DNA from: Yuukianura sp. NJ FZ-2021
Taxonomy: Eukaryota
NCBI GenBank assembly: GCA_046563655.1
Contig: CM102289.1
Span: 5,890,001 to 5,954,000 of the forward strand
Reading direction: 5' to 3'
DNA length: 64,000 nt
Within the stretch, counting starts at the first letter, position 1; every line of letters starts with the position of its first letter. The notes beneath the pieces were generated by a model that saw only the letters and a list, made by a program, of their open reading frames with translations, made no database searches and was not told the DNA's origin. Both the position numbers and the translations under genes were made by a program. Positions 8,223-39,600 of this stretch are shown here, in pieces.

Positions 8223-10564
8223 TTAATCCTCGTCTTCGTCATCACCAGCATCGCCACCTTGTCCCTTCTTGGCATTCTTCCTCTTGACACGTCCAACGCG
8301 ACCGCCGCCAAACGGTGATTTCAGGGAGAAGTCAATGTGCTTCTGACTGTCGAGGCGGACAACAAATGATGGAATATTTACTACTTGCTTTCTTACTCTG
8401 AAAACACAAAACAAACAATGGAATTAGATCATTCTAATTCTAGTAATCCTAGTTGTTGCCATGTTCCAAGCCGATGAGTCGGAGTTGATACAAGGAATCA
8501 ACCCGTCACTTTGACAAGGAATAATTTAGCCTCTGTGATATGTATCTGCCTCAATGTTGTACCGGCAAATGCTCATCGCAACATCACATGGCAGACCATC
8601 TTATTAAATTAAATACTCAAACTCGTCGATAAGAATTTTTTCTCTTACCGAATGTGACGCTGACGGATAAGGACACGGGCATGGTGGATACTCTTGGCAA
8701 GCCCTAATTTGAAGACTTGTGTCTGGAGACGTCGTTCTAGAAAATCTTCAATTCGGAGACCGAGAACGTAATCCAGTTTCATCTTAGTTTCTTCCAAGAC
8801 ACCAACTCTGACAAGCCGACGAAGGAGAGCATTACCTGTAAAAATAGAACACAGTTTACATCCATTGCTTTGTATTGAAAATTACTCATTCTGCAGTAAG
8901 TCTTTGTCAAATGTGTAAAAAAATGAAATTTTTTGTGTTACCTGTATTTTTTGATCTTTTCCAAATTTTGGGGAAATGAAGTCTATACAAAAAGAAAAAT
9001 TTTGGTGAAAAATGTTTGACCTAACTCAACCCATTATGGAGATATCGAAGGTCAAAGCCGCCATTTTGGAAATATTGCGGCACGATTATCTCCGGAACGG
9101 CTCATCCGATTTAGGTCATCTTGGGCTCAAATGAAAGGGCTCGACATGCTCCAGACCTCATTTTTTTCTCAAAATTTTGACAAGGGCCCATGGGCCCTTA
9201 ATTGTTGAAAGTTTAATTAGTTGTGGACTTTCATCTCAGAATATTAATTTTCTCGTTAGAATTACATGGAATATTTACAGTAGACCAAAATGACCCTTAA
9301 GGGCCCACTAAAAATCTTAAGGGCCCCTACACAATTTTACCATATACTGCCAAATTACAATTAAACACGTTGTAATGTTTAAGTAAGCACATTTTGCAGA
9401 AATTTTATAGGGGGCCCTTAAGATTTTCAGTGGGCCCTTAAGGGTCATTTTGGTCTACTGTAAATATTCCATGTAATTCTAACGAGAAAATTAATATTCT
9501 GAGATGAAAGTCCACAACTAATTAAACTTTCAACAATTAAGGGCCCATGGGCCCTTGTCAAAATTTTGAGAAAAAAATGAGGTCTGGAGCATGTCGAGCC
9601 CTTTCATTTGAGCCCAAGATGACCTAAATCGGATGAGCCGTTCCGGAGATAATCGTGCCGCAATATTTCCAAAATGGCGGCTTTGACCTTCGATATCTCC
9701 ATAATGGGTTGAGTTAGGTCAAACATTTTTCACCAAAATTTTTCTTTTTGTATGGACTTCATTTCCCCAAAATTTGGAAAAGATCAAAAAATACAGGTAA
9801 CACAAAAAATTTCATTTTTTTACACATTTGACAAAGACTTACTGTCTGATGTGCACGATAGATTCATCAGTTGAATAAAAAAGTTCGAATCAAGGTATTG
9901 GCCTTCATACAAGAGGTGTCAAGTCAAATATTCATCATTTCTCTATCATTTGCATCAAAATTACATGTAATAAACTGCCATGTCAATACCAAAAAATTAC
10001 CTTCGAAAAGACGTTTAGGGTCCTTGTCATCAAGGGTGAGGAGTTCTCTGGCAGCTTTTCGGATTTTGGCCAAGGTGTACTTGACTCGCCACACCTCTCG
10101 CTTATTTCTTAGCCCATACTCTCCGATGATCTTCAACTCCTGATCGAGTCTGAAAACAAAAACAGTATTATTATTACCTCATGCTGGACGTAAGAAGTAA
10201 AATACAATTAAAAATTAAAGCATACGCCTGCGCAGATTAAGGTAAACTCGACTTGTCAATGGGATCACGTTCATGTCAATTTGTGTAAAACCATACCTTA
10301 TATATCGATTCCATTTCACTATGACTACATGTAATCATAAATACCTGTACTTTCAATCTACACCGGCATAGCTGCTGGCTTCCGGTCCGGCACACGCAGC
10401 CCATCCATCACCCATTACCAGACGCAGACCATACAAGGCTTTGACCGCAAATTTCAACTAATCCTGACACAATTACGGACTAATACTTACCGAGCCTTCT
10501 CAAAGGGTCTTCTGGGGGTGACATATGTCTTTCGGTTGACCTGTGGCACTCGATGGTTGACCAT
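8223..10564 (-). CDS. RpS9: 40S ribosomal protein S9 (uS4)
   Basis: Exons 10564-10491, 10149-10001, 8835-8649 and 8397-8223. Motifs [79 protein letters not shown]. Confidence 0.98.
8457..8597 (-). ncRNA. Structured intronic RNA element (H/ACA-like, or RpS9 splicing-regulatory structure)
   Basis: In the last RpS9 intron: stems TCTGCC/GGCAGA, ATGTTG/CAACAT and GTTGAT/ATCAAC, an ANANNA (ATATCA) and a terminal ACA. An alternative long-range pairing also exists (TGCCATGT/ACATGGCA, CGATGAG/CTCATCG). Confidence 0.4.
8894..9844. mobile_element. Foldback/MITE-like non-autonomous DNA element with ~435-bp inverted arms, in RpS9 intron 2
   Basis: 8894-~9328 is the reverse complement of ~9411-9844, with only about 2 mismatches seen. 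Termini CAGTAAG...CTTACTG. 4-bp direct repeat TCTG at 8890-8893 and 9845-9848. Confidence 0.93.
9857..9947 (-). ncRNA. Box C/D snoRNA, predicted guide for a 28S 2'-O-methyl-G (yeast Gm2791/snR48-equivalent site)
   Basis: Minus strand: C box ATGATGA (9938-9932), guide TGACACCTCTTG (9921-9910) complementary to LSU CAAGAGGUGUCA, D' ATGA (9908-9905), D box CTGA (9870-9867), terminal stem GATAGA/TCTATC. Intronic in a ribosomal protein gene. Confidence 0.85.
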
Positions 10565-11935: not shown

Positions 11936-14900
11936 TTAGAACTCAGTTGTACTCTTATTTTTCTTAATGCTGTTTGGATTCACTGACTGGTTCGTCTCAG
12001 TTGCCGCCGCAGGGGAGGGAAGAATTCCATTGGGTGGCTTCTGGTTCAGGAATCGATTGGGGTCAGACTTGGAGTTTATACCATTACAGAGGCTTATGGA
12101 GCCTCCAGCTGCCGGAGAGAATTGGATGGCCAAAGGATCTCCTGCTCCAGAAGGCGACAAGTTCAATGAAGTGGGATGTGGCGGAGGTATGCTTTGGATT
12201 TGATCAGTTCCGTTGTTCCGTGGCCAATCTGCCGGCCTATTGTTCAGAAGATGGAGGTCGAGAGGCGTAAAACGATTAGCATAGGCGTCTGATGGTCGTT
12301 TGTTGTTGTTTGAGAGAAAGGACGAGGGTGGTGTTGGTGTATTATGAAAAGCGGACGGAAGATTAGCCGCTGGATACAGTGTTGAATTGTGTGGCCGAGA
12401 CAGTAGGCCTGTCAAGCTAATTTCATTCCCATGCAGGTCTTCACCGTGGCGGAGAAGAGTAGGATCTTCTTCGTCATCTGAATTGTTCGCTCCGTCTTCC
12501 GATATGAGATCATCTTCGAAAGTGGCTCGAAGTGGAGTACGGGCACTCGCGTGCTGCTGCTCTTCGTACGTGGGACGCATTTGTAGTTTGGCACGGTATT
12601 CAATCCCACTTGCACTGTGGTAGAAGGACACTTGAGCAAAGTCAGGCTCCACCTCTTTTACGAGTCTGCAATTAAAACGAAAAATGATGCACAATTAAGT
12701 ATGTAACCACCGATTCCCACTTAAAATCACAAAAGAAAACTTACTCATCGAGAATATCAGTAAACGTTGGTCTGTCCGGAACACGGTAAGCCCAGCACTT
12801 GAACATTAGGTTATACAAAATATCTGGACAATTTTCAGGACGCTCCATAATTCCACCTTCCCGAACGTAACGCAGGACTTGGTCATTGTTCAATCCCTAA
12901 ATGATTTCACGTTACTCGGTTACTCAGATTACAACTTAAATATTCACTTTCTTAAATCTTAACACTTTTTACCTGATACGGTTGAGCAGCCAGGGTAGCC
13001 ATTTCCCACAAAACAACGCCGAAACTCCAGAGATCAGAATGAACCGTGAATACTCCGTCTTTAATAGATTCTGGAGCCATCCATCTCACCGGCAGCAGGC
13101 CACGAGTGGCTATTTTCAAAAACACAAGAAAACATGAAAAATTTATAAATTCCATTCAATATAAAAAACTGAATGATATTCTCACATTTTCGATAGTAAT
13201 CTGTATCCTTAGTCATTCCAAAGTCTCCCACTTTTACAGTAATGTCTTCAGACACCATACAATTTCTAGCTGCCAAATCTCGATGAACAAATCCTTTGCT
13301 CCCCAGATACGTCATTCCATCCGCAATTCCAGCTGCCATTCGTAGAATTTGCTGAAAAACACACATTTAAGACCGGCTTCAACAGAATGCTAAATAGTCA
13401 CAGCTAAGTTTAAGTAGTTCATATTTACTTTGAGTGTAGGTGGAGGCTCGCCATTGTTTTCGGGACTGTCTGGTCGTCTCGCTCTTAAATACTTTTTCAG
13501 ATCTCCATTCGCCATTAGTTCCATGACGACATAAGTTGGCTGAGATAAAGAAACTACGCAAAGCAGACGAACGACATGATGACAGTCCATTTGTGTCATG
13601 ATGCTCGCCTCTTGAAGGAAGCGATGAAGCTGCCGGAACAGTTCAACAATAATATAAGTCGCTGGGTTAGTGTAATATTCTGGTGTTTATGGGACTCCCA
13701 TTACCTCTTCACTTGGGGCACCCCTGGCTACTTGCTTCACAGCACATTTGACCTTGGCCTGGCCCTTGAAGTCTCGTATAATTCCTTCGTACACCATGCC
13801 AAATGAACCCTTCCCAAGCTCCTTGATCAGCTCAATCTTGTCACGGGGAACTTCAAATTCTTCAGGAATGTCAACTACAAAAAATATTCCAAATAATTCT
13901 CTCCTTCTATCAGCGAATCGCCTTTGTCGTAAAGTTTCAGCTTACCATTTTGAAGGTATTCTGGATTTGCCGATGTGATTTTCTTTACTAATTTCCTGGT
14001 CTTGAGGAAGTAAAGAAAGAAAGCAGCGGCCATTCCGAAGAAGATGAGAATTGGAAGTACGATGGCCAAGATTTGGCCAGCGCTCATCGCTTCCTCAGTA
14101 GCCTGTGAAAACCAAACAAGGTAAAATTACTCACCTCTGTTCAATTCAAAAAGTTTCCCTCAAAACTACTACTCAACTATATTTTTCCAACTAACAAGAA
14201 CGACGAAATACTTGGCCACGGTGTAATTGGCCAGTGGCGGTGGTGCCAATGAGATCACTTGAATTCGGATACTGTAGTTGCCAGGATGTAATACTTTTGG
14301 AAACGTGTAGTTTCGTCCACTTTCGTTGAATACCTTCCTCGTTATACAGGTTATGTGAGAAGGTTCCTAAAACAGAAAATTACACAAGTTACAAAAGTTT
14401 CCGCATTCTTAAAAATTTTGCTGTCAATATTTTACGTTTGTTTTTGATGTATCCACTCGAGTTACGTTGACGTTATAAGACATCACCATCCCATTAGCTT
14501 TGGCTGGCTCATCCCAACTCAGCTTTATTTCGTTTCCCGACACATTCACCACAATGGACTTAATGTCAACATAATCCGCCGTGTCTAAAATGAAGATTCA
14601 GCGAGTTAGCACAGATCACCCTATTAATTATACCCATGAAGTAATATGAACAACCAATTAATACCTGAGGGAAGCGTCGTAATTGATTCCCTAATGACAG
14701 GAGAGCAAGTTCGTGTATCATTAGCACGCGTATCAATCAAAATGTCCATCGACACTTCTCGGCACGCCATGACTCCAACTGTGTATCGCGTAAAATGCGT
14801 CAGATTCCCCAAGAAGTATATCGATCTTCCAACAGCATTCGTTTGATGTTCTGGTACATCAACTATCCATTGCATATCCGAAACTACAGCAAAGAATACA

Positions 14901-17900
14901 AAACAGTGTAAAGCTTAGACTTTAACTCCCGGATGGGTTAGTTTGTTACGTTACGATTGCCTCACTCATCACAATTTTCACGTCGATAGCCATATTAACC
15001 TTAATCTATGTCGTGTTACCTTTTGGCAAAAGTCCATCCGAGTGTGGAACACTCTCCGGAAAAGTTCTTGGACCATTCGTAACTTCCCGAGAATCTTCGG
15101 TAGTACTCGCTGTAAAGTTAGCATTCGCGTCTCTTCGTCTCCTTCTTCTCGAACTGATTTCAGGAAAAATATCCTCTGGCCTGACATGGTCACCATTATC
15201 ATTGTTGTCTCTATAATCAGGACTATAAACGAAAATTGTCTTTAGTTTTCGAAATTCGTTGGTTCCTACAACTTGAAATTCTCACTTTTCAAAAAAGATG
15301 GCATTTGTAATGGCATCCTGCACTTGATGCTCAAATAGTGCCAACTTCTCGCGTTCAGCCAATGGCGGTTGTGTAGTTCTTCGTTGAACTGCTTCATTTG
15401 CCGAACATGAACAACATTCCCGACCTTCTGGACCTCCGTCACCGTGATGCTGCAGAGTTTGAACAAAACTTGGAGTTGTCTTGTCCTTGACAGTTGGCTT
15501 CGTGTCAGGTCCTAAGAACGTCAACAGTCATAATTTTCCCAAACAATCCAACTTTTTCACATAGACGAGAACTTCGCAACGTATTTATTTTGTGTTTGCT
15601 TACGTCCGCGACAGTAATCTTGATTTTGAAACGAAGGATCCTGAACTTCTTCTTTCAAGTAGATTTGGTACTTTTCTATGACGCCATTTGGAGTTTCAGG
15701 TGGAAACCATGAGATCACGATCCCATTACTCGAATTAGACACCAACGTCACTTTCCTCGGCGGAGAAGGAACTACATCACCACAATAAGTTTGTTTTATT
15801 ACTCATTTCCTATTTTGACTCATTCTAATTCAAAACTTACCGCCAGGCAGTGTAGTAAAGTAATGTATCCGGGACTGAGCCGCTCTATTGTGATTCGGTG
15901 ACTCTCGATCGGGGATAACAACAGTCTTGACATAAATTGCGTACTGCGTATAAAACTGTAGACCAGTAATTAGTGACTCGGCTTGCCATGCTGGTTCACT
16001 CTCACGACTCCCAGTAAATGACATCTTGGCTACGTCAACAACTTTCCAGTCATCCCCTCCACACGGATCTCTGTCTTCGTAGATTGACGCCGTTTGTTCT
16101 GGGGATACTTTGTAGTACACTTCGTAGTTGAGAAGATATCGAGCGTCTGTTAGATTCCGTCGGAAGTTTTCCCATTGAATCGTCACAGACGAGTTTGTTC
16201 GTTTCTTAATCTCAAGGGCCAACTCAGTCTTGTTACCTTCAAAAAGCAAAACAAAATAAATTCAATAGTTCCTTCCATGATTTTATTTTTTCTTTCGGTA
16301 TTTTAAATTTTGGCGGTGAAAACTTACAGGGAACTTTGTCTCCATTGGTCACACCAATGTCAATTGTTGAATTTGTGTCTTGGGCTGAATTAATAGTAGT
16401 GTGGCGGAGAAAGTCATAAATTACTCCAGGACATAACTTGGGATTATAATGGAAGAGAACGCGGGCATCTGGGCGGAGGATTCGTATGCTGTTGGACTCA
16501 GTTCTGTTCCAGAGGGCTTGGATATTCTCATTGGATTTTACGACCACTGCATACCTGTTGGTTGTAAACAACATAAAGTAAGCCTAAAAGTGCGCAGTCA
16601 CAATTAATTGCCGCAATTTGTGCCATTGCTTATGCAACAAAGTAATCTTACGAGTTTTCCTCAAGAATATCCCCATGGATCCGCTTGAGTGACTTGAGGA
16701 AGTTGACTGACGACAAGGAATGTGAATTGGCCACTACGAGACTCCCATAAATGTCCTCAATCATGTCAAGATTATTCTCAAGTTCTCGGACAAGGTTTGG
16801 AGAGTAGCCACGGATCTGGATTTTGAGAGTTCCGTTGACAGCAGTACATCCTTTGAGTTGTGCTGATGATTCTACACTGTCCACAAACGTTCCCATACAT
16901 ACTTTCTTGCAAGGACCTGTGTAAAAAGCAACAATTTTATAAGTCATGCCATGTTACTTGTTTACATAAAAGGTCAAGAGGTCAACTGACCATCACATGG
17001 GTGACAATACTCGTCATCAATTCCAGTGACCGTGGTATAGTTTTTGGGACACTCCAGTACGCAGACGTCTCTTCCGTTGTATCCATGCAGGAGTTTTCCT
17101 CGGCTGCGATGACCTCCTCGTTTCGGATCCGAATACACAATAGAACGACACTCCTGTTCAGTTACGCAGCGTCGATTCAGATACTGAAAAAAGAAAAGAA
17201 AGAAATACGTTGAGTTGAAAATGTTGCGTAGAATTTGCTTTTTTCTATCAAAGAATCTGTTACAAATTCCAAGGTGGGTAAACAAACAGATTGTTGATTG
17301 CTACAATACAATACTTGTAGCAATACAATTGGTTGCTATAGCAACCTTGACAAATTCCTCAGAAGAAACATTTAATTCAATTCTGCAAAAAGCAAACCCA
17401 CACCACACACGCCCACACATCTATAAACTTTCCACTACTTTTTCTTGAATTGAATTTACTACTTAGGTCATAAAATCGAATCCTGTTTTTCCTTGGATTG
17501 CTCGAATGCACACAAAATTGGCAAAAACTATAGGATTAGAGAAGATTACGCTTAAAAATGCCATATTGCCAGCCAAGTCAAATACTAAAGGACAACAACA
17601 ACAACAAAAAAGCAATCTATGTTGCTTCATCTTTTGGCCTCGGTTTCTCTCCAAATTAAAACTTTATCAACAAACAGTTTTTTGTTCTGTTACAATTCAT
17701 AGAACCAATTTTTCATCATTACAACAACGCAAGTTCTTTTTAGTTCCAATTTTAAAACTTTGAACGCACATTGTAACTCAAATCTTCTTAAACCAAACTT
17801 CCGTCATTCCTTTTCAGCTCTCCAGCCATCCACTTCCTTGTCATAAAAAAACAGGTTAGGTTTTGTTTTTCTTTTCTTTGCAAAAAATGAAAAACTTTAT

Positions 17901-20900
17901 TCTAAAAATTTTGAAATTTCAAAAAGTATGCATAGCATGACCCTCTTCAATTACATTACATAAACCAGACATTGTTTTTACACTCTTTGCTTTTTCGATG
18001 CATAATAAAAAAAACTTTGTTTTTTACTCTCCTTGGTTTTTCGTTGCAAAAAAATGCATTTTTTTTTCAAAAGCACACAATTTTGAAATTTGAAGAAGTA
18101 AACATGACCCTCCTCACTTACATTACAGAAAACTAGTACAAGCATCTTACAACACAAAACTGTGACGATTTGAACAAATCATCTCATTCATCCAACATGA
18201 TTTAATAGGCCAAACGAAAGACGAAGGTCAAAGGTTATCCTCCACTTGACTTTGACAAAGATCCCGTCATGTCATTCTATGTAATTCGAACTACTTGTTT
18301 TTATCTTCACAAGGAAAGATGAAACTCTACATTTGCTATTCGCGAAAAAAAAACTTCAGATCCTAAACTCTTCCAAAAGTTGTTTTCTATCAACAACTCT
18401 TTCTTTCTTTTCCGAAAATTGTTATTTTGTTGTGCTTTTTTGCCAACTTTCACCAACTTCTCTTCTCTCAAATTCAATGAAACCAATCCATAGTTCACGT
18501 CATTGCCCTTTCCTAAACAACATTCGACAGAACAAGTACGTGCGTGTACACGGAAATTGCTACCAGGAACAAAACGTCCATCAACATCTAGTTTCAAAAG
18601 AGTATAGAAGAAAAAAAACAGAAAAGCAAATGACAAAGTGCGGTGTTTTTGGACGCGTAGTTTAGGCCAAGGCACGTGGAGGAGCCTTGTGTTCCGTAGG
18701 GCGGTTAGGTTTAAATTTCCTGTTTTCCTGAAATTGACACACGGAAACTACGAAACCAAACACAGGAGAAAGTTAGACTCTTTGAAGGAACAACTACAAA
18801 GTGAAATTGAACATAAACACAACAAATGGGGAAAACGTTAAGGCTCACCTCCAACTTCAACATAACAAACAGGGACAGTGTTTCTATATTTTCAAGTTTC
18901 AATTCAAACAATTCCGTTCCAACGAAATTGAGATAATTAAAAATCAATTTCAGGACTGCTGCTCTACTTCAATTGACTTGCGAAAACAACAACAACAGCA
19001 TGCTAAGCCCAGTTCTCAATCTCTCTGACGCCATACGTTAAGCCTCTCCAATTTTCAAGTACTAGGCAGCACAAAAAAAATTATTTGCTCAGAATCAAAC
19101 TGTGAACGATCTAAGCAATGCGCCTGTCTACAAAAAAAGACACGAGTTTCAAAACAACTCGATAATGGTTAAACGTTGGACAAACGTTTTTCAACATTTC
19201 CAGGTTTACTAACCAAACAACAAACAAACTAACAAGTACTCACAATGTACATAAACCAGTTAAGTGTAATTGTCAATTTGCAAATTTACGCTACACTTGT
19301 TGCCATTCTAAGCTTTTGGATATTAGCGGACCACTAAAGAAGCACATGATTCAATGTAATTTTCAAAGGAACAAACACATCTCTTGTGCTCTTTTGTCAA
19401 CTTCATCGTCATTTTAGCGTTTCATGCTCCAAAGTTATAAAAACTATTCCTAACATGAGACAAACATATGCTTCGTACCACGCGCCAAAAGTTTCTATTT
19501 ACTCTTTTGCCAAATAAACGAAAAAAAAAAACCTTGTTAGTACTGCGCTTGTCGTTGTCAGTCTCGAAATTCTCAAAAACCGAAAACTTCGAAAGATTTC
19601 TTCCTCGTACGAGGAATATTCGTCAATTTTACTTCCACACCTACACGCACTCTCATTTTCAAGCACAACAAATTTCTAATTTCCAAACTCAAGGAGTGAC
19701 TTTCGATCAAACTTTTTGAAAAATGTTTTAGCATTTTTAGTCTTTCCGACCGTTTGTATTAAAGCCTAAAAGTCCAATGTATAAAAAAACTAGATAAAGT
19801 GACGAATTCCCTAGTCTTCATCTTGATCTTCTCTAGTGAACGGGGAGGCGCGTGCGAAATCCTGCGGGAATTTTTTGTTTCCAAAAAACTACGGCGTAGT
19901 AAACGTGAAGAGCGGCAGAAGAATAATGGGGTAGGCACGTGCGGAAGCCTTTGTTAGCAATATAGCCAAACTAGGCCATCCTATGCCAAAATTATAGCTA
20001 TTAAATTGTGCTTTCTCCCTTCATCTTATAGCTTACACAATGACTTTTATGTCACAAAACTTTGTTCATATCGTCGCGCGGTCCACACTCGTCAACCTTC
20101 TTGACCACATTGTTCATCAACTTTCACAAACGCCCTGCCATTCTTCTTCTTTTTCACCAGTCACAGCAAAAATGTCACTCACATTCCCCACCTTTTACTT
20201 TCTTTCTAAAATTCTGTCACTTTGAAAAAAAAACTTTGGAATCAAAACTTCTAAACTGACATGATAAAAGAGACATGCCGAACTGATTTTCGACCAAAAA
20301 TGTCTCATTTTCAGTGTATACATTTCAAGTTTAACCTGCTCATGCCACGCCACTTGCCAATTCCCACCTTAAGTATACATTTTTTTAAAATAGGAATTTA
20401 AAAATATTTCCAAAATAATCAGACCTGCCAAAAATATTTAGTTCTCATGCATGTAATGTTAACCAAATCAATATTTGGGGTCTTCTTGTTACTAAATATT
20501 TATTTATTTACCAATGCCCATAATGTTCAGTTCCTAGCTTTTTCAGTAAATATTGTATTTAATTAAATATTTCATTGGTTTTTGGAAAATATTTTTGGCA
20601 AGTCTGAAAATAATTATAAATTACACTTTAATAAAATATTTGTGTCACCTCGTACGTAGTTTCTGGACATTGTGCTCGACAGACGATTCTTCGCGGATTT
20701 TCCTGCAGAATTTCCACATGCCTACAGGCGAAACAAGAACTCGGAGAATTCGGTGCGTCACAACCGCCAATACATTGATCATCGCAGCATTCTCCATCAG
20801 CAGTACACGGCCTCCCACCACATCCTGGACACTTTTTCTTGTTCACTGCAACCACACAAAACAAAAAAAAATATCAATTTACAATTCTTTCGTCATTCAT

Positions 20901-23900
20901 AAATCATGGCCCATTTTTTCGAAATTGTGAAAAACACATTATTTGTTATACGCTGAAAAATTCGTCATAATAGTACATTACGTCAGCAGTGCTATTCTGC
21001 AAATCATTTATAGATGTAAGTATTGATCTCTGACGTCGAACGACATGAGCTGAAGCTAACTTTAGAAAACAAATCCGAATTTTCTCATCAGTTTCTAGCT
21101 TTCTATTCTTTGCGTAAGCCTTAAGTAAAATCCATATCTAAGCTCCAACAAAAATAGTAAAACCTGTGACCGGCGCAGACGATGAAGGCCACTGACATAC
21201 ATGTTCACCAAAAACTTCCTTAAACCAAGTCCTTGACAAGAACTTTCAAAACATCAACAAGGGAAACCATCAGCGCATGTTAGTCTAGGCTTAACTCTAA
21301 AAACCATATCCTTTCTCCGTATTTTCCACCGCAGCGGCTTGGAATTGCTTTTGCCTTTCCCTAAATCCAGTGTTAATATTTTCAGACAGTGGACATTCCG
21401 GCCTTTTGCCCGAAACGGGAATTTTGTGTATTTCGGTCCAACCCCTTCAACCGAAATGACTAAAACTATTTTAACTTTACTGGAGGCGCGGTAGGATTTG
21501 AAAGTTTGAGAAACGTGGCTAGGTTTCGCATGCGTTTTCGGTCGTTCATTTCAGACGTTTTGGACAAAAATTCTGAAAAGTGACCGAAACTGGGCACACT
21601 GCCTGGATCCTAATTCCAAGTTTCTATTTTGAAAATTAAGTTTCAAAATTCTAAAATTCTTCTACCCAGAAAAAAAACAGCCATTGAGGAGAGTAGGATC
21701 TGCACCAACTCTCTTCTCAGCTCCCATAAAATCCCAGAGTCATTCCCATTCCAACGTTTTAGAGAGGTTAGTTGAATAACATCAAAACAGAAAAACAATT
21801 CCAAGGTTAGCAGGCAAGTGACAAGGTGAACTTAAGTCGTAAACTCAAACTACTACTACAGGGAATTTGCACGAGTAAAAAAGCCTCATTTTCCCGAGTA
21901 TGCGCCTCTGTACCACATAACAGAAAAACCAGTTCATGGAAAAAAGACAATGGTCTCATCCCATTGTCAGTTTTGTCACTCCAGGAAAACCTTAACAAAG
22001 TCAAACTAACAAAGTCCGCCGCTCTATTATTACTCAATCTAAACAATAATTTTTACGCGCCAATTTTAGGAAAACCATTGAGCTCACCAATTTCATTACC
22101 AAACATCCGCCTGTTTCCTCTTGATTTATCCTACGCAAGCGTGTCACAAATATTTAGTCTCCAGGCCAGTAATTTTACTAAAAAAATATTTCCGGATTTT
22201 CTCATCCTATTAATACTAACGATAAAGACAAGCCCAATTTTTTTTATTTTCTCATGCCCTTAATTTTAGTATTTTGCCAATTATTTATGTATTTCTCAAG
22301 CCCTTGATAATAAACAAGTAAATATGTGAGCAATTTATAAAAACGCCAATATTTAGATTCGTTTTTAGTAAATATTTTTGGCATGCTTGCTCATACGCCA
22401 CATAACCATAAAACCCGGGGAAAAAACTACCATTTACATAATACTACCCCAAAAAATTCTGTACACAAAAATAACAAACTTCCCGCTCTAATTAAATTCC
22501 CGTGAAAGCGAACTACTATCCTCAATTTAGCCTTCCTTTTTACGTGATATTTGTATGCGTGTGCCGCCTTTTAAGCTCGAAAACTCACTACAAAACAAAG
22601 TCTAGACGCCATTTATATCCGTGAGAGCTTTCTCAATTACTAAACTGCACGAGGCAGCTTTGAGTTTGAGTTTTAGCGGAGATGACCTACATTCTGCCAC
22701 AAAAAATAAAACGGAGCTACAAACCCCTCCTTCTACGTTTCTAAAAATCCACCATCGTCCACGAATAATTCATGAACATAAACACGCCTTCTTCCTGCAA
22801 AGGCAAAAAAAAACACGCAAAGTAAACAAACAAAAACGTAACACAAAAAACTCTTAAACGGACAAAAGTGGAGAGAGCGACGAAGGTTAGCCTATAAACC
22901 TCGTTACATAAAAACCAACTTAAAGATGTTTTGATCGTTTTCATTTTTATGAACAAGAGCTGCGTTAATTTCGAATCTTGTACCAAAACTTTTATGTAAC
23001 AAACGTAAACATACCAATTTGGCAGTCGGTGTTGCTCCAACAGAGATCTCGATTGTCCGACTCCGCTTTCGGACAGGCATTTGGAGGACAGAGATTCGGA
23101 CACTGGTCACTCGGCTTGTTTTTCTAGAAAAACGAGAAATTACAAAAGATGAGAAAAAAAGTTAATTACAATTTACGAATGCTCAACGCGTCTCTTCGAA
23201 TTTAAATCTCATTTCATTTTTTTTTATCAACATTTGAGTGAACTCAGCACATTTCAGTCATAAAACTCAAAAACCCGTTAGTCTGTTTTCATTCATTCCC
23301 AAAGTTACGAACCGGAAGAGATCACCACAGGAATTTAAGTGAATTGAGCTCATAGGAATTGCTATGCTTGTAACTAAAAGTTACAGTGGAATTCATATGA
23401 ATTGAGCTCATAGAAATTGTTTGTGTTTTCAATGGAATTGAATTTGGGAATACAGTTGAGCGCGTAGTTTAGTAGACAGACGGACCATGAGACAAGAAGT
23501 GTTGCAAAAACGCATAAAAAGCTTCTCAGAGGGCATTACCACTGTCATGAGACCATCAAGAGGCCATTTCCTCCCATTAACTAAAACTCCAAGTACGCGC
23601 AATTGTTAATTACAAAGTTATACTACTCATTGTATATAACTCTGAACCGAGTGAATGACACTCGAAACACTGAAATTCCAGTTACTGCAGTAACTCGCAG
23701 TACTTTGTACTATGAACTACTTTATACTTCCAGTGTCATGCGATAAACACACGTTATAGCAGCTGCGCTGCACTTACTGCAGCAGCAAAGCAGCAGGCTT
23801 AAAAAAAATTCAATATAAAACCACTCATCATTTTGAAAATTTCGAAAATTACAAGTTTCGAAAAATTCAAAACATAACGCAACCATTTTTTTTTAAATTG

Positions 23901-26143
23901 CTGTTCCAAGTTTGTGTTTTTACACCCATTTTCCTTTACAAAACTTTTACTTTTCCTGTTTCAACGTTGCGCAAAGTAAAATTTCTCTTGGTTTTTCAAA
24001 AATAGAAAAAAAAAATAGTCTAGACAAAAAATATTTTTTAGATAGTACGCATATGAATGAAGCTGGAAATTCCCAGCGGGTGTAAATTATGTTGTTACAT
24101 AACCACAAAAAAATTAAAGTAAAAACTTCATGTAGAACTTCCTCATGAAAATTTCGACAAATTTCGAGCACGTTTTAAAACCAACCAAATCATTTCATTC
24201 CCCGTACATGAATCTAAATCCAGCAACAGAAGTTTTAGCTAAGGATGATGAGGATGACAAAACCAGAATCGTCTAAAACCAACCGCCAGACACATTCAAA
24301 CTCATAATCTTTCAAAAACAACCGCTCTTTTTTTTTTAGTTTGGAACAAACAGTTAGTAATACCACACTCAAATTTAAGCGTCCGTCAAGCGTCCACCAG
24401 CAGTTCAAACATCAAATCCGATTAAAGTATTACACATTCAAAGTCTGCCAGGAATGAGTCACAAAGCTCCCATTGATTCTGTTTCTACAGAAATCGAACA
24501 CTGACCACCGTTATGCAAGAAAAGAACAAAGAAAAAAAGTAAACAAAAATGGATATTTCTTGTAGAGTAAAATCAAATATACCTGGACATGGTTGACGGT
24601 TGGATCATTGGTGATTTTAGCCCAATCAATTGTTTCAACATAGCATAGGTTTGGATTACTGCCAATGTAAACTCCACGTTCCATGATGTTTGTGAGGCTA
24701 GGGAGACCAATCTCATGCATATCCGGCATCTGGTAAAACAATCATTAAAAAAACAATATTGAAACATCCGGCTTTTTAAAAAATTCGAAGTATTTTGTTC
24801 AAAACTAATCAATAGTTTTGTCATCAAAAATTCTGTGTATTGTGCGTACATCAGAGATGATAAATGCATAGTTGTAGATTAAGTCCTGGCCGCGAATAAC
24901 AACCAAATTTGGAAACAAGTTGCGTAGAGTTTGGAGTCCTTGTGCAAATGTAAGCAGGAAGTAGCCAGTGATTTCACGAATTTTTGGAAAACTGTAGTTA
25001 CGATACTCCGCTGCTGAGCCATTGTCGATCAAACTAATTTGTAAGTTTCCTTCAATGACACGACAACCTTCCAGCCTCTCCAAATCGCGTACTTCATTTC
25101 GGATGTACATACTTCCACAAACTACAAAATCCATTAAACAAAAACACTTCAATTAGCAACTTACAAAAATTACATAAAATTTGGTCTAAAATTGGGTTAA
25201 AAAATTTCCACGCGCTCACTACAAACCTTGAAATTGGCACATAATTGTTTTAATTGTCTACTATGTAATACATATTCTGGAGGAATTGCCCATCACACCG
25301 CTAAGTTATTCAAAGGAAACTCAATATTTTGAGCTAAAGCAGGAAAACATCCTTCGTCTGACGTCAATGGCATAAACAAATGGAGAAAGTTACAACAGGC
25401 TTCTCTACCGTCAACCGCCAACATTTGAAAATTGGAAAACAGTCATATAAACCAATACGACCGCCCTCTCAACTACCCAGCTACGTCTGCTAAACCCAAA
25501 CTCTTGTTGTCACTCTCAATTTCATCATCTACCGCCATGGCCTCATCTCAGTTTGCCATTTTCTACCGTAAGGCCAAGGTCGGGCATTTTAGTTTTCATG
25601 ACTTTCAAATTAGATTTTCACAGGCCTCGTTTCAATTTGTCTTCCCCCGGATTTCTTCTTAGAAGTTTAGAAGTTCTTCGTAAAAGTTCAATTTCGGTTT
25701 TACAAGGTTTTACAACAAAACAACCCGAGCATCACCAAAACCCAAACGTCAAATCATATCATGTCAAACTCTCGCGCAAAATCGGAAATTGTCAAGCTAC
25801 ATTTCCTACATAGCCCTAAACCCTGTTTACTCTTGCAGTAATCTTGGATTTTATGAGGTCAGGTCACGGTCAGGGGAGCTATAAAGAGAAGGAAGATTGG
25901 TTAAGGTTAGGTTGTCAATGACAACCTTGTCATCATCACTATTAGCTTGGCGCCATATGTCATTTGTAAGCTAGAAAGTTAAGGCTTACGTCCATGAGCC
26001 GAGTAGTTGATGGTAGTCCCATGTACTCCAGTAGTTAGCGACGCAGGGAAAGTGAGGAGAGTGGCAGTGAAAGTCCAGAAGAGAATCCATAAGGCGTGTC
26101 TACTCACATGGGACTGATTCATAGTGATTGATCCTCCGAACAT
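11936..26143 (-). CDS. InR: Insulin-like receptor tyrosine kinase
   Basis: Signal exon 26143-25990; L1 ([35 protein letters not shown]); Cys-rich exons near 23.0-23.1, 20.65-20.85 and 17.0-17.2 kb; L2; FnIII domains; furin site [10 protein letters not shown] (~15132-15149); TM; NPEY; kinase motifs [44 protein letters not shown]; long C-tail ending at 11936. Confidence 0.96.
21368..21601. mobile_element. Possible old hAT-like MITE in an InR intron
   Basis: CAGTGT...ACACTG termini. Flanking 8-mers cctaaatc and cctggatc match at 6/8. Confidence 0.3.
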
Positions 26144-31367: not shown

Positions 31368-32337
31368 ATGATTACATAGAATATTGAAACAAAAGTCTAC
31401 ACCCCGTAATCGTCATCAGTGGTGAACTACTGCGACCTACTACTAAATGATAAATACAGCCGTACGGTTGTCAAGTTGTCATTGGTGAACCCTGGTAAGA
31501 GTCGAATTGGTATACACGCTATACCTCTGTCTGTAAACATTGTCTGAGAATAATAGACCCACTTTTGGATGCAGTACTGCCGTTTGGCTGCCATCTTTCT
31601 TTTGGTAGCCGGATAAGAAAGATCCAAAAAGCGTTGTTTTAAGATCTTAAAAATTTCTTAAAAATGGTCCAAAAAAGCTCTAAAAAAGTTCTCTTAAAAG
31701 TCAAAATAAGCCCTATTTAACCGCTTTTGGTAAATAAAGTAAGCTCAAAAAGAGTACTTCAATTAACCGTCAGTTAGTAGGACAAGGTAAGGATTAACGA
31801 ACGTCATTGTAGCTGCACAGTGTAGTCATTCCAACCGTATTTTGTGGCTACAATGGGGGCCACATTTCAGTGGCCAGTTTTTTTTGCTAAATAATAAGCT
31901 AAACACACACATATTGAAGGAAAATTTTGATTTTTGTTGCGAAAATTGGGGTTTTCATTGAATTTGGCATGAAAAAGTTCCCAAAAAGTTCCAAAAAATT
32001 TTTTATTGCAAAAAAAGAATTTATAAGATTTTAAAGTTTTTAAAAGTTTTTAAAGATGGGAAAGTTCTAAAAAAGATTTATCTTTCTTATCCGGCCTCTG
32101 ATGATTACATAGAATATTGAAACAAAAGTCTACACTCTAGAATTGTCATCAGTGGTGAACTACTACCTACTACAAAATGATAAATACACCCGTAGGGTTG
32201 TCAAGTTGTCGTTGGTGAACCCTGGTAAGAGTCGAATTGGTATACACGCTATACCTCTGTCTGTAAACATTGTCTGAGAATAATAGACCCACTTTTGGAT
32301 GCAGTACTGCCGTTTGGCTGCCATCTTTCTTTTGGTA
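31368..32337. repeat. ~240-bp direct duplication (31368-31607 and 32101-32337) bracketing a TIR element
   Basis: Both copies run ATGATTACATAGAATATTGAAAC...CCATCTTTCTTTTGGTA. The 3' halves are identical and the 5' halves carry several substitutions. Confidence 0.9.
31608..32095. mobile_element. MITE-like element with 16-bp perfect TIRs
   Basis: GCCGGATAAGAAAGAT at 31608 and ATCTTTCTTATCCGGC ending at 32095, with an A-rich interior. Confidence 0.7.
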
Positions 32338-36689: not shown

Positions 36690-39600
36690 TTAGGGAGTTC
36701 GCCTCATTATAGGAGTTCGTAGAAGAACGATGCTTTCGGCGGATATTATTGGCCGGTTGCTCTGACTGTGATGTTCGATGAGACGAGTCACACTATCAAA
36801 CGTTCTATCTTTCGTTCGTACCTAAATTATTAAAAACAAAATCATTTGTTAGTCTCGGTGACCTTTGACCTGAAATCTTTCTTAATTCACTCACCACTCC
36901 CTCGGGGTCAACCAGCAGAAGATGCTTTGGTGATCCATTTTGTAAACCCGTCAAGACATACTGGTGAGGTGTGGTCTGAGACTCTCGTACCAAATAGTCT
37001 CCGTCCTAAAAACGTGAAAACGAAAGTGTTAAAATTTTCAAACAACTTCCTCCGTTTTTTTTCAATTTTATTTTCTCTCACATTAACAACAAGCGCTTCA
37101 GCCTCTCCCCGACTCACGACTCCATGAAACCACGGTTCGTTTTCCAGCTCCTTTCGCTGCTCATCCGTTGTAAGTCGTCTCTTCCCCAGCGAGCCATTGA
37201 GAGATTCTATTTGAATGGAAAATTAGCTACCATTAGTTTCATCTCATAAATTACACTCACTGAAACATCAGCCACCGCCACTCGCGTCTCAATTCATTAA
37301 TCATTACCGTTAATGAACTCTCAAAAAACATTGAACTTTGCCGCTTAAGCTTCTCATTGCTTCCTTTCCCACGTGCCGCAAGTAAAGTATTCCAGAAGGA
37401 ATCAAAAAAGTTCCGAAGCGGATCCGTTTTCTAAATTCGAAAACGGATATTTTTAACTTCACCACGAATTTCGTGCCTGACTCAAGCATCAAATTCGTAG
37501 CTTAAGTATCAGGGAGGGTGATGAAAAAAGCTCGTAAGAGCTGTTACAAAGCGTTTTCTCTATCGGCATTGAGTGACACGCCGCTAGAATAAAAAATGAG
37601 TGGAGGAAGGACATACTGTCGTTACAAACGAGGTGGATGGCATCGTTAAATCGCTTCGGAAACATTATCGCTAATCTTCGGCAGGATCTAAAGCACTTAC
37701 GCATATCAAAGGGATCTCCAGCGACGACGGGGTCATTAGACTGGGGAACAGGACTTCCTCCGCTGCTTAAAAAGAGAGACTCAAGAGCTTTTTCTGGTGG
37801 CAACTGCCCAAAGGCTGGCGGCGTTGGAGCTTCAAAGTCTATTAAATTCACGGCCATTTCTGCAAAACAAAAACATCAAAAGTCAATTTCAAAAACGAAC
37901 AAATATTAACGTTTCTTGGATATTAAAATCTTAACTCACCTTTATCAGAAGTTGGGTCCAATGTAAGCGTCGATGGCGTAGGTTTTGTTCTCTGTCCATT
38001 TTGCGAAGTTTTTCCAACCATTTGCAGTTGGTTCTCCGGTGGAAGTTTTCCTGGAAGGTCGTTGTAATACTCAGGGTCATCATTAGCTAGCCTAAAATCA
38101 AACCATATCCGAATTCGGTTAAAATGTTACAAACGAGCTGCTTCATGTTGTCACGTTGTGTTTGAGTCGTATTTCGCGCTTTACTTTGGTGGAGGCGGAG
38201 GTCTCTTCTGCAGATACATCTTAAACCTGAGTTCAAAGGCTTGACCAATGGTTGTGATGACATCCTGCGCAAGACCAGTACCACATTCTAGCACAAAGCA
38301 GGCCCGTCCCAGCGATGTGTCCTTGGCCACGTACGCAACAAAATCTAGCATCGTCTGCAACAAAATAAATATTTAACAAGTTAAGCACAACCCACTCTTT
38401 AATTAAGTTTGAATAGAACTTACAACATCACCGCCCGAGGCAAAAGATATGTTCGGCATTTCATGAACTGCAATGACAGCTCCAGTCTCTAAACTCGTTA
38501 GCTTGAGGCAAGTGCTCGTAATGGTAAGACAGACATCACTGCCAGCATGTTCTAGCCTCGGCTTCAGTCCCAGAATTTTTACTAGTCTCCGATCGATCTA
38601 GATGAAAAAAAAATCAAGTTTTCAATTTCAATTTAAAAATTTTTCAAATAAAATACGTTTCCGTTTTAAGACTTTACCTTCCTTTTTCTATCCACAGCCT
38701 TGAATCCGGCCGCTTCACAGACTTGATTTATGCACTCTCTGAAAACCAAAATAAACAAATCCGTTAAGAAAAAAAAATTTTTTTTTTCCAAACTTTATCA
38801 CGAGCTCTTTTCCATTCAAAAAATTGGCACATAGAACACACTTACTTGGCTATGAGTGACCTTGTCTCAAAATCTAAACTTTTCATTGAGGTATTGACGT
38901 CGTGACATCCAATGTACTGAAATAGACCAGAAAAAAAATTCAGCATCCCCCATTCAAATTATATTACTAAAAAAATGCGCAATTTCCTACCGCTGCGCCA
39001 ATTTTCCTCGAATTTTCTGTTTTTCAAAAAGTCTCAAATAGAAACACCGCCGCTTTTTCCATCTCGCCGATTTTTCAAAAAAATACCTAACTACATATCC
39101 CTTTTTTAAAAAAAAATTCCTTCCCACACATCTTTTTGAAAATTCCTCTCATTCTCATTGTCACTTTCACTTCCTTTGAGAGTTTCAATTTTTAGCGGAA
39201 ACATAATTCCCTCCAAATGGTTTCCAAAACGTCAACTCAAGCCCAACCTCTTCAACTTCCTTCCCAGCGTCGTCGCATCAACATCCCCCCAAAAAACTGC
39301 CACACTGATTATGTCACCAAAAACTCTAAATTCCTTGCTCACATTCACATTTTCGTTCCCAGCGGCATTCCCCCTTTTGAATGACGTTTGACTCATGTGT
39401 CATGTCAGCTTTTTGTCAGTTTCCAATAAGCCCAATGGCAACGTTAACATAAGGGGAAGTGGAGTGTAATAATAGTAAAATCCCCAAAAAAAAAAAGTTT
39501 GTGCAAAACCCCTGTAACACTTTTGACAGCAAAAGAGAGCCAGAAAAAAAGTTTTCCATTCATAAAAATCCCCTTCAGACTTGGCTTCTGCACGCACTCA

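What the first reader, a model, noticed from the sequence alone, without database searches (positions are those of the whole stretch)
13186..13225. Insulin-receptor kinase lacks the first activation-loop tyrosine (3-aa deletion)
Seen: one continuous exon reads [13 protein letters not shown], then [14 protein letters not shown] after splicing. Established: insulin/IGF receptors have DFGMTRDIYETDYYRK with three autophosphorylated tyrosines (human Y1158/Y1162/Y1163). Here IYE is cleanly missing and no intron lies at that point, while the Gly-loop, AVK lysine, HRD and DFG motifs are intact. Inference: a shortened two-tyrosine loop may alter autoinhibition, basal activity or adaptor docking, and may mark a diverged receptor paralogue.
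Basis: partly seen in the sequence, partly recalled or inferred. Interest (0 to 1): 0.7.

Follow-up and report, generated by a model that had tools for sequence, protein, structure and literature searches.

The report
Springtail insulin receptor with shortened switch
This springtail-type animal's only detected insulin receptor lacks three amino acids, including one of the three switch tyrosines that nearly all animal insulin receptors keep; its springtail relatives have lost that tyrosine too, and the receptor likely still works as a two-tyrosine switch that would no longer dock the booster protein SH2B/Lnk at that site.

Summary
On the minus strand one exon reads [13 protein letters not shown], three residues shorter than human IR. 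Contigs from 4 runs (2 samples, 2 studies) show no indel there. The paralogue idea is not supported: this is the only insulin receptor found in G000. It sits in a springtail clade (100/100). Five other records carry the same deletion. One (L027) has an identical loop at dS 1.36, with kinase dN/dS 0.049. None of 17 springtail-type sequences has the first tyrosine: 8 keep full length with F/V/I/L there, and others lost 1, 2 or 3 residues. Parsimony gives one tyrosine loss and three deletion changes; a single origin of the deletions is rejected. So the tyrosine was probably gone before this deletion. Best reading: a working, ligand-regulated, two-tyrosine receptor that has lost the pY1158 docking site. 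Human Y1158F stays activatable but loses SH2B1 stimulation (PMC2731532). Raised basal activity is the main rival. Activity is untested, no RNA run was listed, and I found no paper describing this.

The parts
13186..13225 (-). Activation-loop start, [13 protein letters not shown]: 3 residues short, two tyrosines (equivalent to human Y1162/Y1163), Lys in place of the usual Arg after DFGMT
13186..13351 (-). Kinase exon: helix E, HRD catalytic loop, DFG, activation loop
   Evidence: PF07714 E 6e-20
13110..13185 (-). 76-base GT-AG phase-1 intron after the YYRK codons; same position in L027
12973..13109 (-). Kinase exon: P+1 loop, APE, helix F
12745..12896 (-). Kinase C-lobe exon
11936..12665 (-). 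Last coding exon: end of kinase and low-complexity C-tail, stop codon
13429..13629 (-). Kinase N-lobe exon (helix C to hinge)
13705..13874 (-). Kinase N-lobe exon: Gly-loop and AVK lysine
13946..14102 (-). Transmembrane and juxtamembrane exon; NPEY motif at 13956-13967
14199..16234 (-). Fibronectin-III exons and insert domain; a run of six arginines at about 15132-15149 is the likely furin site
   Evidence: tblastn to Orchesella and Folsomia InR
16290..16917 (-). L2 domain exons
   Evidence: PF01030 E 4.5e-11
16989..23144 (-). Three cysteine-rich (furin-like) exons at about 23016-23144, 20640-20846 and 16989-17186
   Evidence: PF00757 E 5.9e-11
24586..25122 (-). L1 domain exons; the signal-peptide exon further upstream was not located

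Best explanation
This gene is the only insulin receptor found in a springtail-type genome, its activation loop has two tyrosines and is three residues short, and it likely still works as a ligand-activated kinase switched by the two remaining tyrosines while it would no longer bind SH2B/Lnk at the missing one. Shown: deletion, intact domains and catalytic motifs, conservation in relatives, purifying selection. Inferred history: the first tyrosine was replaced (F/V/I/L) in an early springtail; the segment, no longer a phosphosite, then tolerated separate deletions of 1, 2 and 3 residues. Inferred mechanism: insulin-like peptide binds the ectodomain, the Y1162/Y1163 equivalents are phosphorylated and hold the loop open, and IRS/Shc dock at the intact NPEY motif. 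The SH2B/Lnk boost through pY1158 would be lost, so Lnk would act through IRS or other kinases.
For: No indel in contigs of 4 runs. All InR domains present in order, no break seen in the kinase exons. Only InR found in G000. Same deletion in P0006, P0211, P0424, P0425 and P0426/L027. Window vs L027 over 274 codons: dN 0.067, dS 1.36, ratio 0.049, loop identical in protein. Tree without the loop columns: 9 springtail rows 100/100; tyrosine loss 1 change; loop length 3 changes; deletion carriers as one clade rejected, p-AU 1.5e-7. 0 of 17 springtail-type rows keep the first Tyr, 17 of 17 keep YY. Pathway partners present: 4 insulin-family loci, 2 over the Pfam cut-off; IRS-1-like PTB; Shc. Human Y1158F is still insulin-activated and phosphorylates IRS-1, with reduced autophosphorylation and no SH2B1 stimulation (PMC2731532). 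ALK Y1278F behaves like wild type and Y1283 is critical (PMC5704167 section 2.5). The Folsomia 2-residue-short kinase models as a normal IR kinase, pLDDT 90, TM 0.94 to activated IRK 4xlv.
Against: No activity or expression data; no experiment on a 3-residue-short IR loop was found. The papers test substitutions, not deletions. In PDGFRA, deletions in this segment often activate (PMC13333789), and ALK Y1278S is gain-of-function. G000 keeps an SH2B/Lnk gene with a well-conserved SH2 domain, so there is no co-loss to support lost docking. A preprint reports Y1158 is phosphorylated first in cis (10.64898/2026.10.08.757607), which would make its loss more costly. The model is of Folsomia, not this protein, and its loop is low-confidence (pLDDT 59-64). 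12 of the 17 rows are unnamed, and the short fragments were picked partly by their loop pattern. The own-genome search scores only its best candidates, so a second InR cannot be strictly excluded.
Confidence: 0.62

Rival explanations
1. The short loop cannot fully block the ATP and substrate sites when unphosphorylated, so the receptor has raised basal activity or a lower ligand threshold, offsetting the lost SH2B/Lnk boost.
For: [quoted passage not shown] PDGFRA 4-residue deletions at D842 transformed Ba/F3 cells with all 20 residues at 842, and some 1- and 3-residue deletions did too (PMC13333789); that D842 matches the Asp after DFGMTK is recalled numbering, not a call. ALK Y1278S is gain-of-function. 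Deletions arose more than once in springtails.
Against: Two PDGFRA 2-residue net deletions did not transform. The Y1162 equivalent, the pseudosubstrate residue, and the preceding Asp are kept. Repeated deletion fits relaxed constraint equally well. The genome keeps insulin-like peptides and the ectodomain is intact.
Confidence: 0.2
2. The receptor is a low-output kinase: loss of the priming tyrosine and the short loop slow activation, giving springtails dampened insulin signalling.
For: Y1158F autophosphorylation is reduced. Y1158 is first in a sequential cis mechanism. A Drosophila Ile-to-Phe allele just before this tyrosine is proposed to reduce activity (PMC8045697, passage).
Against: Other work puts Y1158 last (PMC5704167). 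It is the only InR found and is under strong purifying selection.
Confidence: 0.13
3. It is a spare, decaying or decoy paralogue beside a canonical InR.
For: Folsomia has two InR-like genes, one highly diverged (P0429, P0149). Insects have kinase-less decoys (PMC7253209). L027 and L035, with different loops, come from contigs that share a dataset prefix.
Against: No second InR in G000 by L1 search (1 match), PF01030 (2 genes) or canonical kinase. dN/dS 0.049. Both Folsomia genes lack the tyrosine as well. L035 falls with Orchesella and Folsomia and has a different intron position, so it is likely another species.
Confidence: 0.04
4. Assembly error or a missed intron.
For: No RNA or raw-read run was available; only contigs were laid.
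Against: Four runs agree, and five independent, diverged records carry the same loop.
Confidence: 0.01

Closest known systems
Insulin/IGF-1 receptor family (human INSR, IGF1R, INSRR; Drosophila InR)
   Same: L1-CR-L2-FnIII ectodomain, basic cleavage site, one TM helix, NPEY, tyrosine kinase with intact Gly-loop, Lys, HRD, DFG and YY.
   Different: No first tyrosine of the Y-x-x-x-Y-Y motif, loop 3 residues shorter, Lys for Arg after DFGMT, Ser for the Gly after YYRK.
Springtail InRs: Allacma fusca CAG7723244.1, Orchesella cincta and O. dallaii, Folsomia candida XP_021950984.1 and XP_021960211.1
   Same: One clade (100/100); all lack the first tyrosine and have Lys after DFG-x-x.
   Different: Allacma (F) and Orchesella (I) keep full loop length; both Folsomia genes are 2 residues short; this gene is 3 short.
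Human IR Y1158F and ALK Y1278F/Y1278S mutants
   Same: Loss of the first loop tyrosine with YY kept.
   Different: Engineered or tumour substitutions without shortening; here a natural, long-conserved deletion.
PDGFRA exon-18 activation-loop deletions (e.g. I843_D846del)
   Same: In-frame loss of 1-4 residues just after DFG leaves a working kinase in most tested cases.
   Different: Somatic oncogenic changes in a class III receptor with different autoinhibition; positional equivalence is recalled.

Membership tests
Insulin receptor family (class II RTK) | L1-cysteine-rich-L2 ectodomain followed by FnIII domains | tested here: met
Insulin receptor family (class II RTK) | Basic alpha/beta cleavage site, single TM, juxtamembrane NPEY | tested here: met
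   six-Arg run, TM exon and NPEY; cleavage itself not tested
Insulin receptor family (class II RTK) | Kinase groups with InR and not with Trk, ROS or ALK | tested here: met
   the 42 best PDB hits are all IR, IGF1R, IRR or fly InR; trees held InR-family rows only
Insulin receptor family (class II RTK) | Intact catalytic motifs (Gly-loop, beta-3 Lys, helix-C Glu, HRD, DFG, APE) | tested here: met
Canonical three-tyrosine InR activation loop | Y-x-x-x-Y-Y motif, 9 residues from DFG to YY | tested here: not met
   6 residues and two tyrosines. It is filed as an InR by architecture and tree, not as a canonical-loop InR.
Insulin receptor family (class II RTK) | Binds insulin-like peptide and autophosphorylates in response | not testable with these tools
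   candidate ligands exist in G000
Insect decoy InRs (SDR, DR2) | Loss of the kinase domain | tested here: not met
   complete kinase under purifying selection
Springtail InR clade | Groups with named Collembola InRs | tested here: met
   sister to Allacma 96/94, clade 100/100; no Poduromorpha or Neelipleona sequence was available by name

The most novel reading that the evidence does not exclude
Springtails as a class rewired the insulin-receptor switch: after losing the first tyrosine they shortened the ATP-blocking segment several times, giving a receptor that needs no pY1158 priming and no SH2B/Lnk boost and is partly on without ligand. This three-residue-short form would be the extreme of that series.
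Probability: 0.2. Interest if true: 0.75.

Novelty: new variant of a known kind. Interest (0 to 1): 0.5.

Why it matters
The three-tyrosine loop is nearly fixed in insulin receptors (315 of 324 full-length InR-like loops held), and the role of Y1158 is disputed: last to be phosphorylated in one account, first and priming in another. Springtails give a natural series in a conserved receptor: substitution, then loops 1, 2 and 3 residues short. That series can test whether the first tyrosine is needed for activation or is mainly an adaptor dock, and how short the loop can get while staying autoinhibited. It is also a candidate molecular marker for Collembola and for one lineage inside it.

Tried and rejected
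Sequencing runs: no RNA holder listed. Single-sequence AlphaFold of the Folsomia kinase failed, pLDDT 34; the alignment-based model shows fold only and cannot tell active from inhibited. The window's own spliced kinase could not be folded, because no contiguous record of it was held. PF08916 (SH2B dimerisation domain) found nothing in G000 and rang in no control; I dropped the idea of Lnk loss after finding its SH2 domain. The search of 50%-identity representatives added P0386 but no new 3-residue deletion. The 54-column tree of short fragments is mostly unresolved. Four Lys-type loops that keep the tyrosine (P0220, P0233, P0428, P0263) fell outside the springtail rows in it, with weak support; if they are springtails, the loss is not class-wide. 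Intron-loss origin of the deletion: mite-like records have an intron at this spot, but none of the springtail-type DNA held (window, L027, L033, L035) does, so I did not pursue it. The signal-peptide exon was not found (three hydrophobic ATG candidates). Earlier-finding look-ups returned nothing. The Hubbard 2013 review was not held.

Full report
Observation. The minus strand at 13225-13186 encodes [13 protein letters not shown] at the end of a 166-base exon, followed by a 76-base GT-AG intron; the next exon gives [14 protein letters not shown]. No GT lies between the DFG and YY codons. Against human IR the exon aligns with a 3-residue gap at IYE. Contigs of 4 of the 5 listed runs were laid (at most 2 samples, 2 studies). 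They show alleles elsewhere in the stretch but no indel or substitution at 13186-13225; two runs span it in one piece. No RNA run was listed, so splicing is inferred.

The gene. tblastn with Orchesella and Folsomia receptors places L1, cysteine-rich, L2, FnIII, TM and kinase exons in order from about 25122 to the stop at 11936, with Pfam support. The kinase model has all catalytic motifs and a juxtamembrane NPEY. The signal-peptide exon was not located. The best named match among those tested is the springtail Allacma fusca.

Copy number. In G000 the L1 exon finds 1 match, itself. PF01030 gives 6 matches in 2 genes; the second is an EGFR by its translation (the name is my reading of the motifs). 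A canonical insect-type InR kinase gives 62 matches, of which only the window's exons exceed 61% identity (79, 71, 62%). The nearest others were read as sevenless/ROS-like and other kinases. These searches score only their best candidates, so single copy is likely, not proven.

Relatives. Three protein searches, one search of representatives and one metagenome scan found the same deletion in P0006, P0211, P0424, P0425 and P0426 (= L027), each followed by the same Cys read-through that marks the intron. Among InR-like loops in the 423 proteins held, 324 had normal length and 315 of these the first Tyr. The 9 without it were 6 springtail-type rows and 3 unnamed others (P0361 N, P0367 D, P0380 C). 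This set is redundant and chosen by similarity. Named springtails: Allacma has F at the tyrosine position, both Orchesella have I, and both Folsomia genes are 2 residues short. Unnamed L033 is 1 short and L035 has V. In all, 0 of 17 springtail-type rows keep the first Tyr and all keep YY. Only 5 of the 17 are named, and the short fragments were chosen partly by loop pattern. Four other Lys-type loops keep the Tyr and fell outside in a weak tree.

History. In a 21-row kinase tree with the loop columns removed, the 9 springtail rows with long sequence form a clade (100/100). The window pairs with L027 (100/98) and then Allacma (96/94). Tyrosine loss needs 1 change and loop length 3 changes, and one clade of all 5 deletion carriers is rejected (p-AU 1.5e-7). 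A 29-row tree with the loop included agrees (one further row was skipped because its Gly-loop was not matched). Inference: the tyrosine went first, and what this lineage deleted was probably a hydrophobic pair plus Glu, not IYE.

Selection. Window versus L027 over 274 codons: pS 0.63, pN 0.064, dS 1.36, dN 0.067, ratio 0.049; the loop differs only at silent sites. The kinase has been maintained with the short loop for a long time.

Pathway. G000 has 4 insulin-family loci (2 over the Pfam cut-off), an IRS-1-like PTB exon, an SH2B/Lnk SH2 exon (E 3e-22) and Shc just upstream of the receptor.

Mechanism. PMC2731532 (passages): SH2B1 binds pY1158; Y1158F is still insulin-activated and phosphorylates IRS-1 (given there as data not shown), autophosphorylates less, and is not stimulated by SH2B1. 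PMC5704167 (abstract, passages, section 2.5): ALK Y1278F is like wild type, Y1283 is critical, Y1278S is gain-of-function, and IR Y1158 is described as phosphorylated last. Preprint 10.64898/2026.10.08.757607 (passages): the N-terminal loop segment occludes ATP, and Y1158 is phosphorylated first in cis; its supplements were not seen. PMC13333789 (passages): PDGFRA deletions of 1-4 residues at D842 mostly transform cells, and two do not; the positional match to this loop is recalled. PMC8045697 and PMC13714748 (passages) give the textbook three-tyrosine model. An AlphaFold model of the Folsomia 2-short kinase is a normal IR fold (pLDDT 90.2, loop 59-64; TM 0.94 to 4xlv, 0.89 to 1irk), which is weak evidence and not of this protein. 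I therefore favour a working two-tyrosine, ligand-regulated receptor without pY1158 docking (0.62), over raised basal activity (0.2), low output (0.13), spare paralogue (0.04) and artefact (0.01).

Prior art. PMC7253209 (passages and a supplement search) reports one InR in springtails, sampled two species whose sequences I did not see, and never uses the words 'activation loop' in its main text. Searches for insulin receptor + Collembola + activation loop gave 0 papers; a looser one gave 19, of which the 15 listed were unrelated by title and abstract start; springtail + insulin receptor + tyrosine kinase + autophosphorylation gave only that paper. The library lacks most subscription journals, so this is not proof of novelty.

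Verdict. Real, conserved and apparently undescribed: a new variant of a known receptor, of moderate interest (0.5). The wider point is the springtail-wide loss of the first tyrosine, with this deletion as its most extreme form found.

Noticed in passing
window 36811-38597 (minus), gene extends further upstream: Shc adaptor gene (PTB and SH2 exons) lies directly upstream of the insulin receptor on the same strand. Vertebrate SHC and INSR-family genes share chromosomes (recalled), so the linkage may be old.
   Followed up: partly
window about 8226-10178 (minus): S4-domain ribosomal protein gene, RpS9-like by my reading, downstream of the receptor.
   Followed up: partly
window 13630-13704: 75-base intron in the kinase N-lobe that L027, L033 and L035 lack: a likely recent intron gain.
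   Followed up: partly
window about 13560 (minus), kinase beta-4 region: Cys replaces the Gly of the usual LLGVVS; L027 keeps Gly. Laid contigs X1-X3 list no variant there.
   Followed up: no
window 31368-31607 and 32101-32337: Two direct copies of about 240 bases, 730 apart (179 bases at 97%, 73 at 88%), between Shc and the receptor; possibly a small mobile element or local duplication.
   Followed up: no
L043, L044, P0280, P0282, P0288, P0290, P0291, P0296: These InR records (P0282 is the mite Euroglyphus) break off after DFGMTR, as if an intron sits exactly where springtails have their deletions; in L043 the loop resumes downstream.
   Followed up: partly
P0149 / P0432-P0434: Folsomia candida has a second, fast-evolving InR-like gene, also 2 residues short, although one InR was reported for springtails.
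   Followed up: partly
P0361, P0367, P0380: Three unnamed, otherwise canonical InR loops have N, D or C at the first tyrosine: separate losses or sequence errors.
   Followed up: no
G000:C8:9726308-9731743 (L107, L108, L110): Cluster of three insulin-like peptide A-chain exons within about 5.5 kb, plus one at C8:3399536.
   Followed up: no
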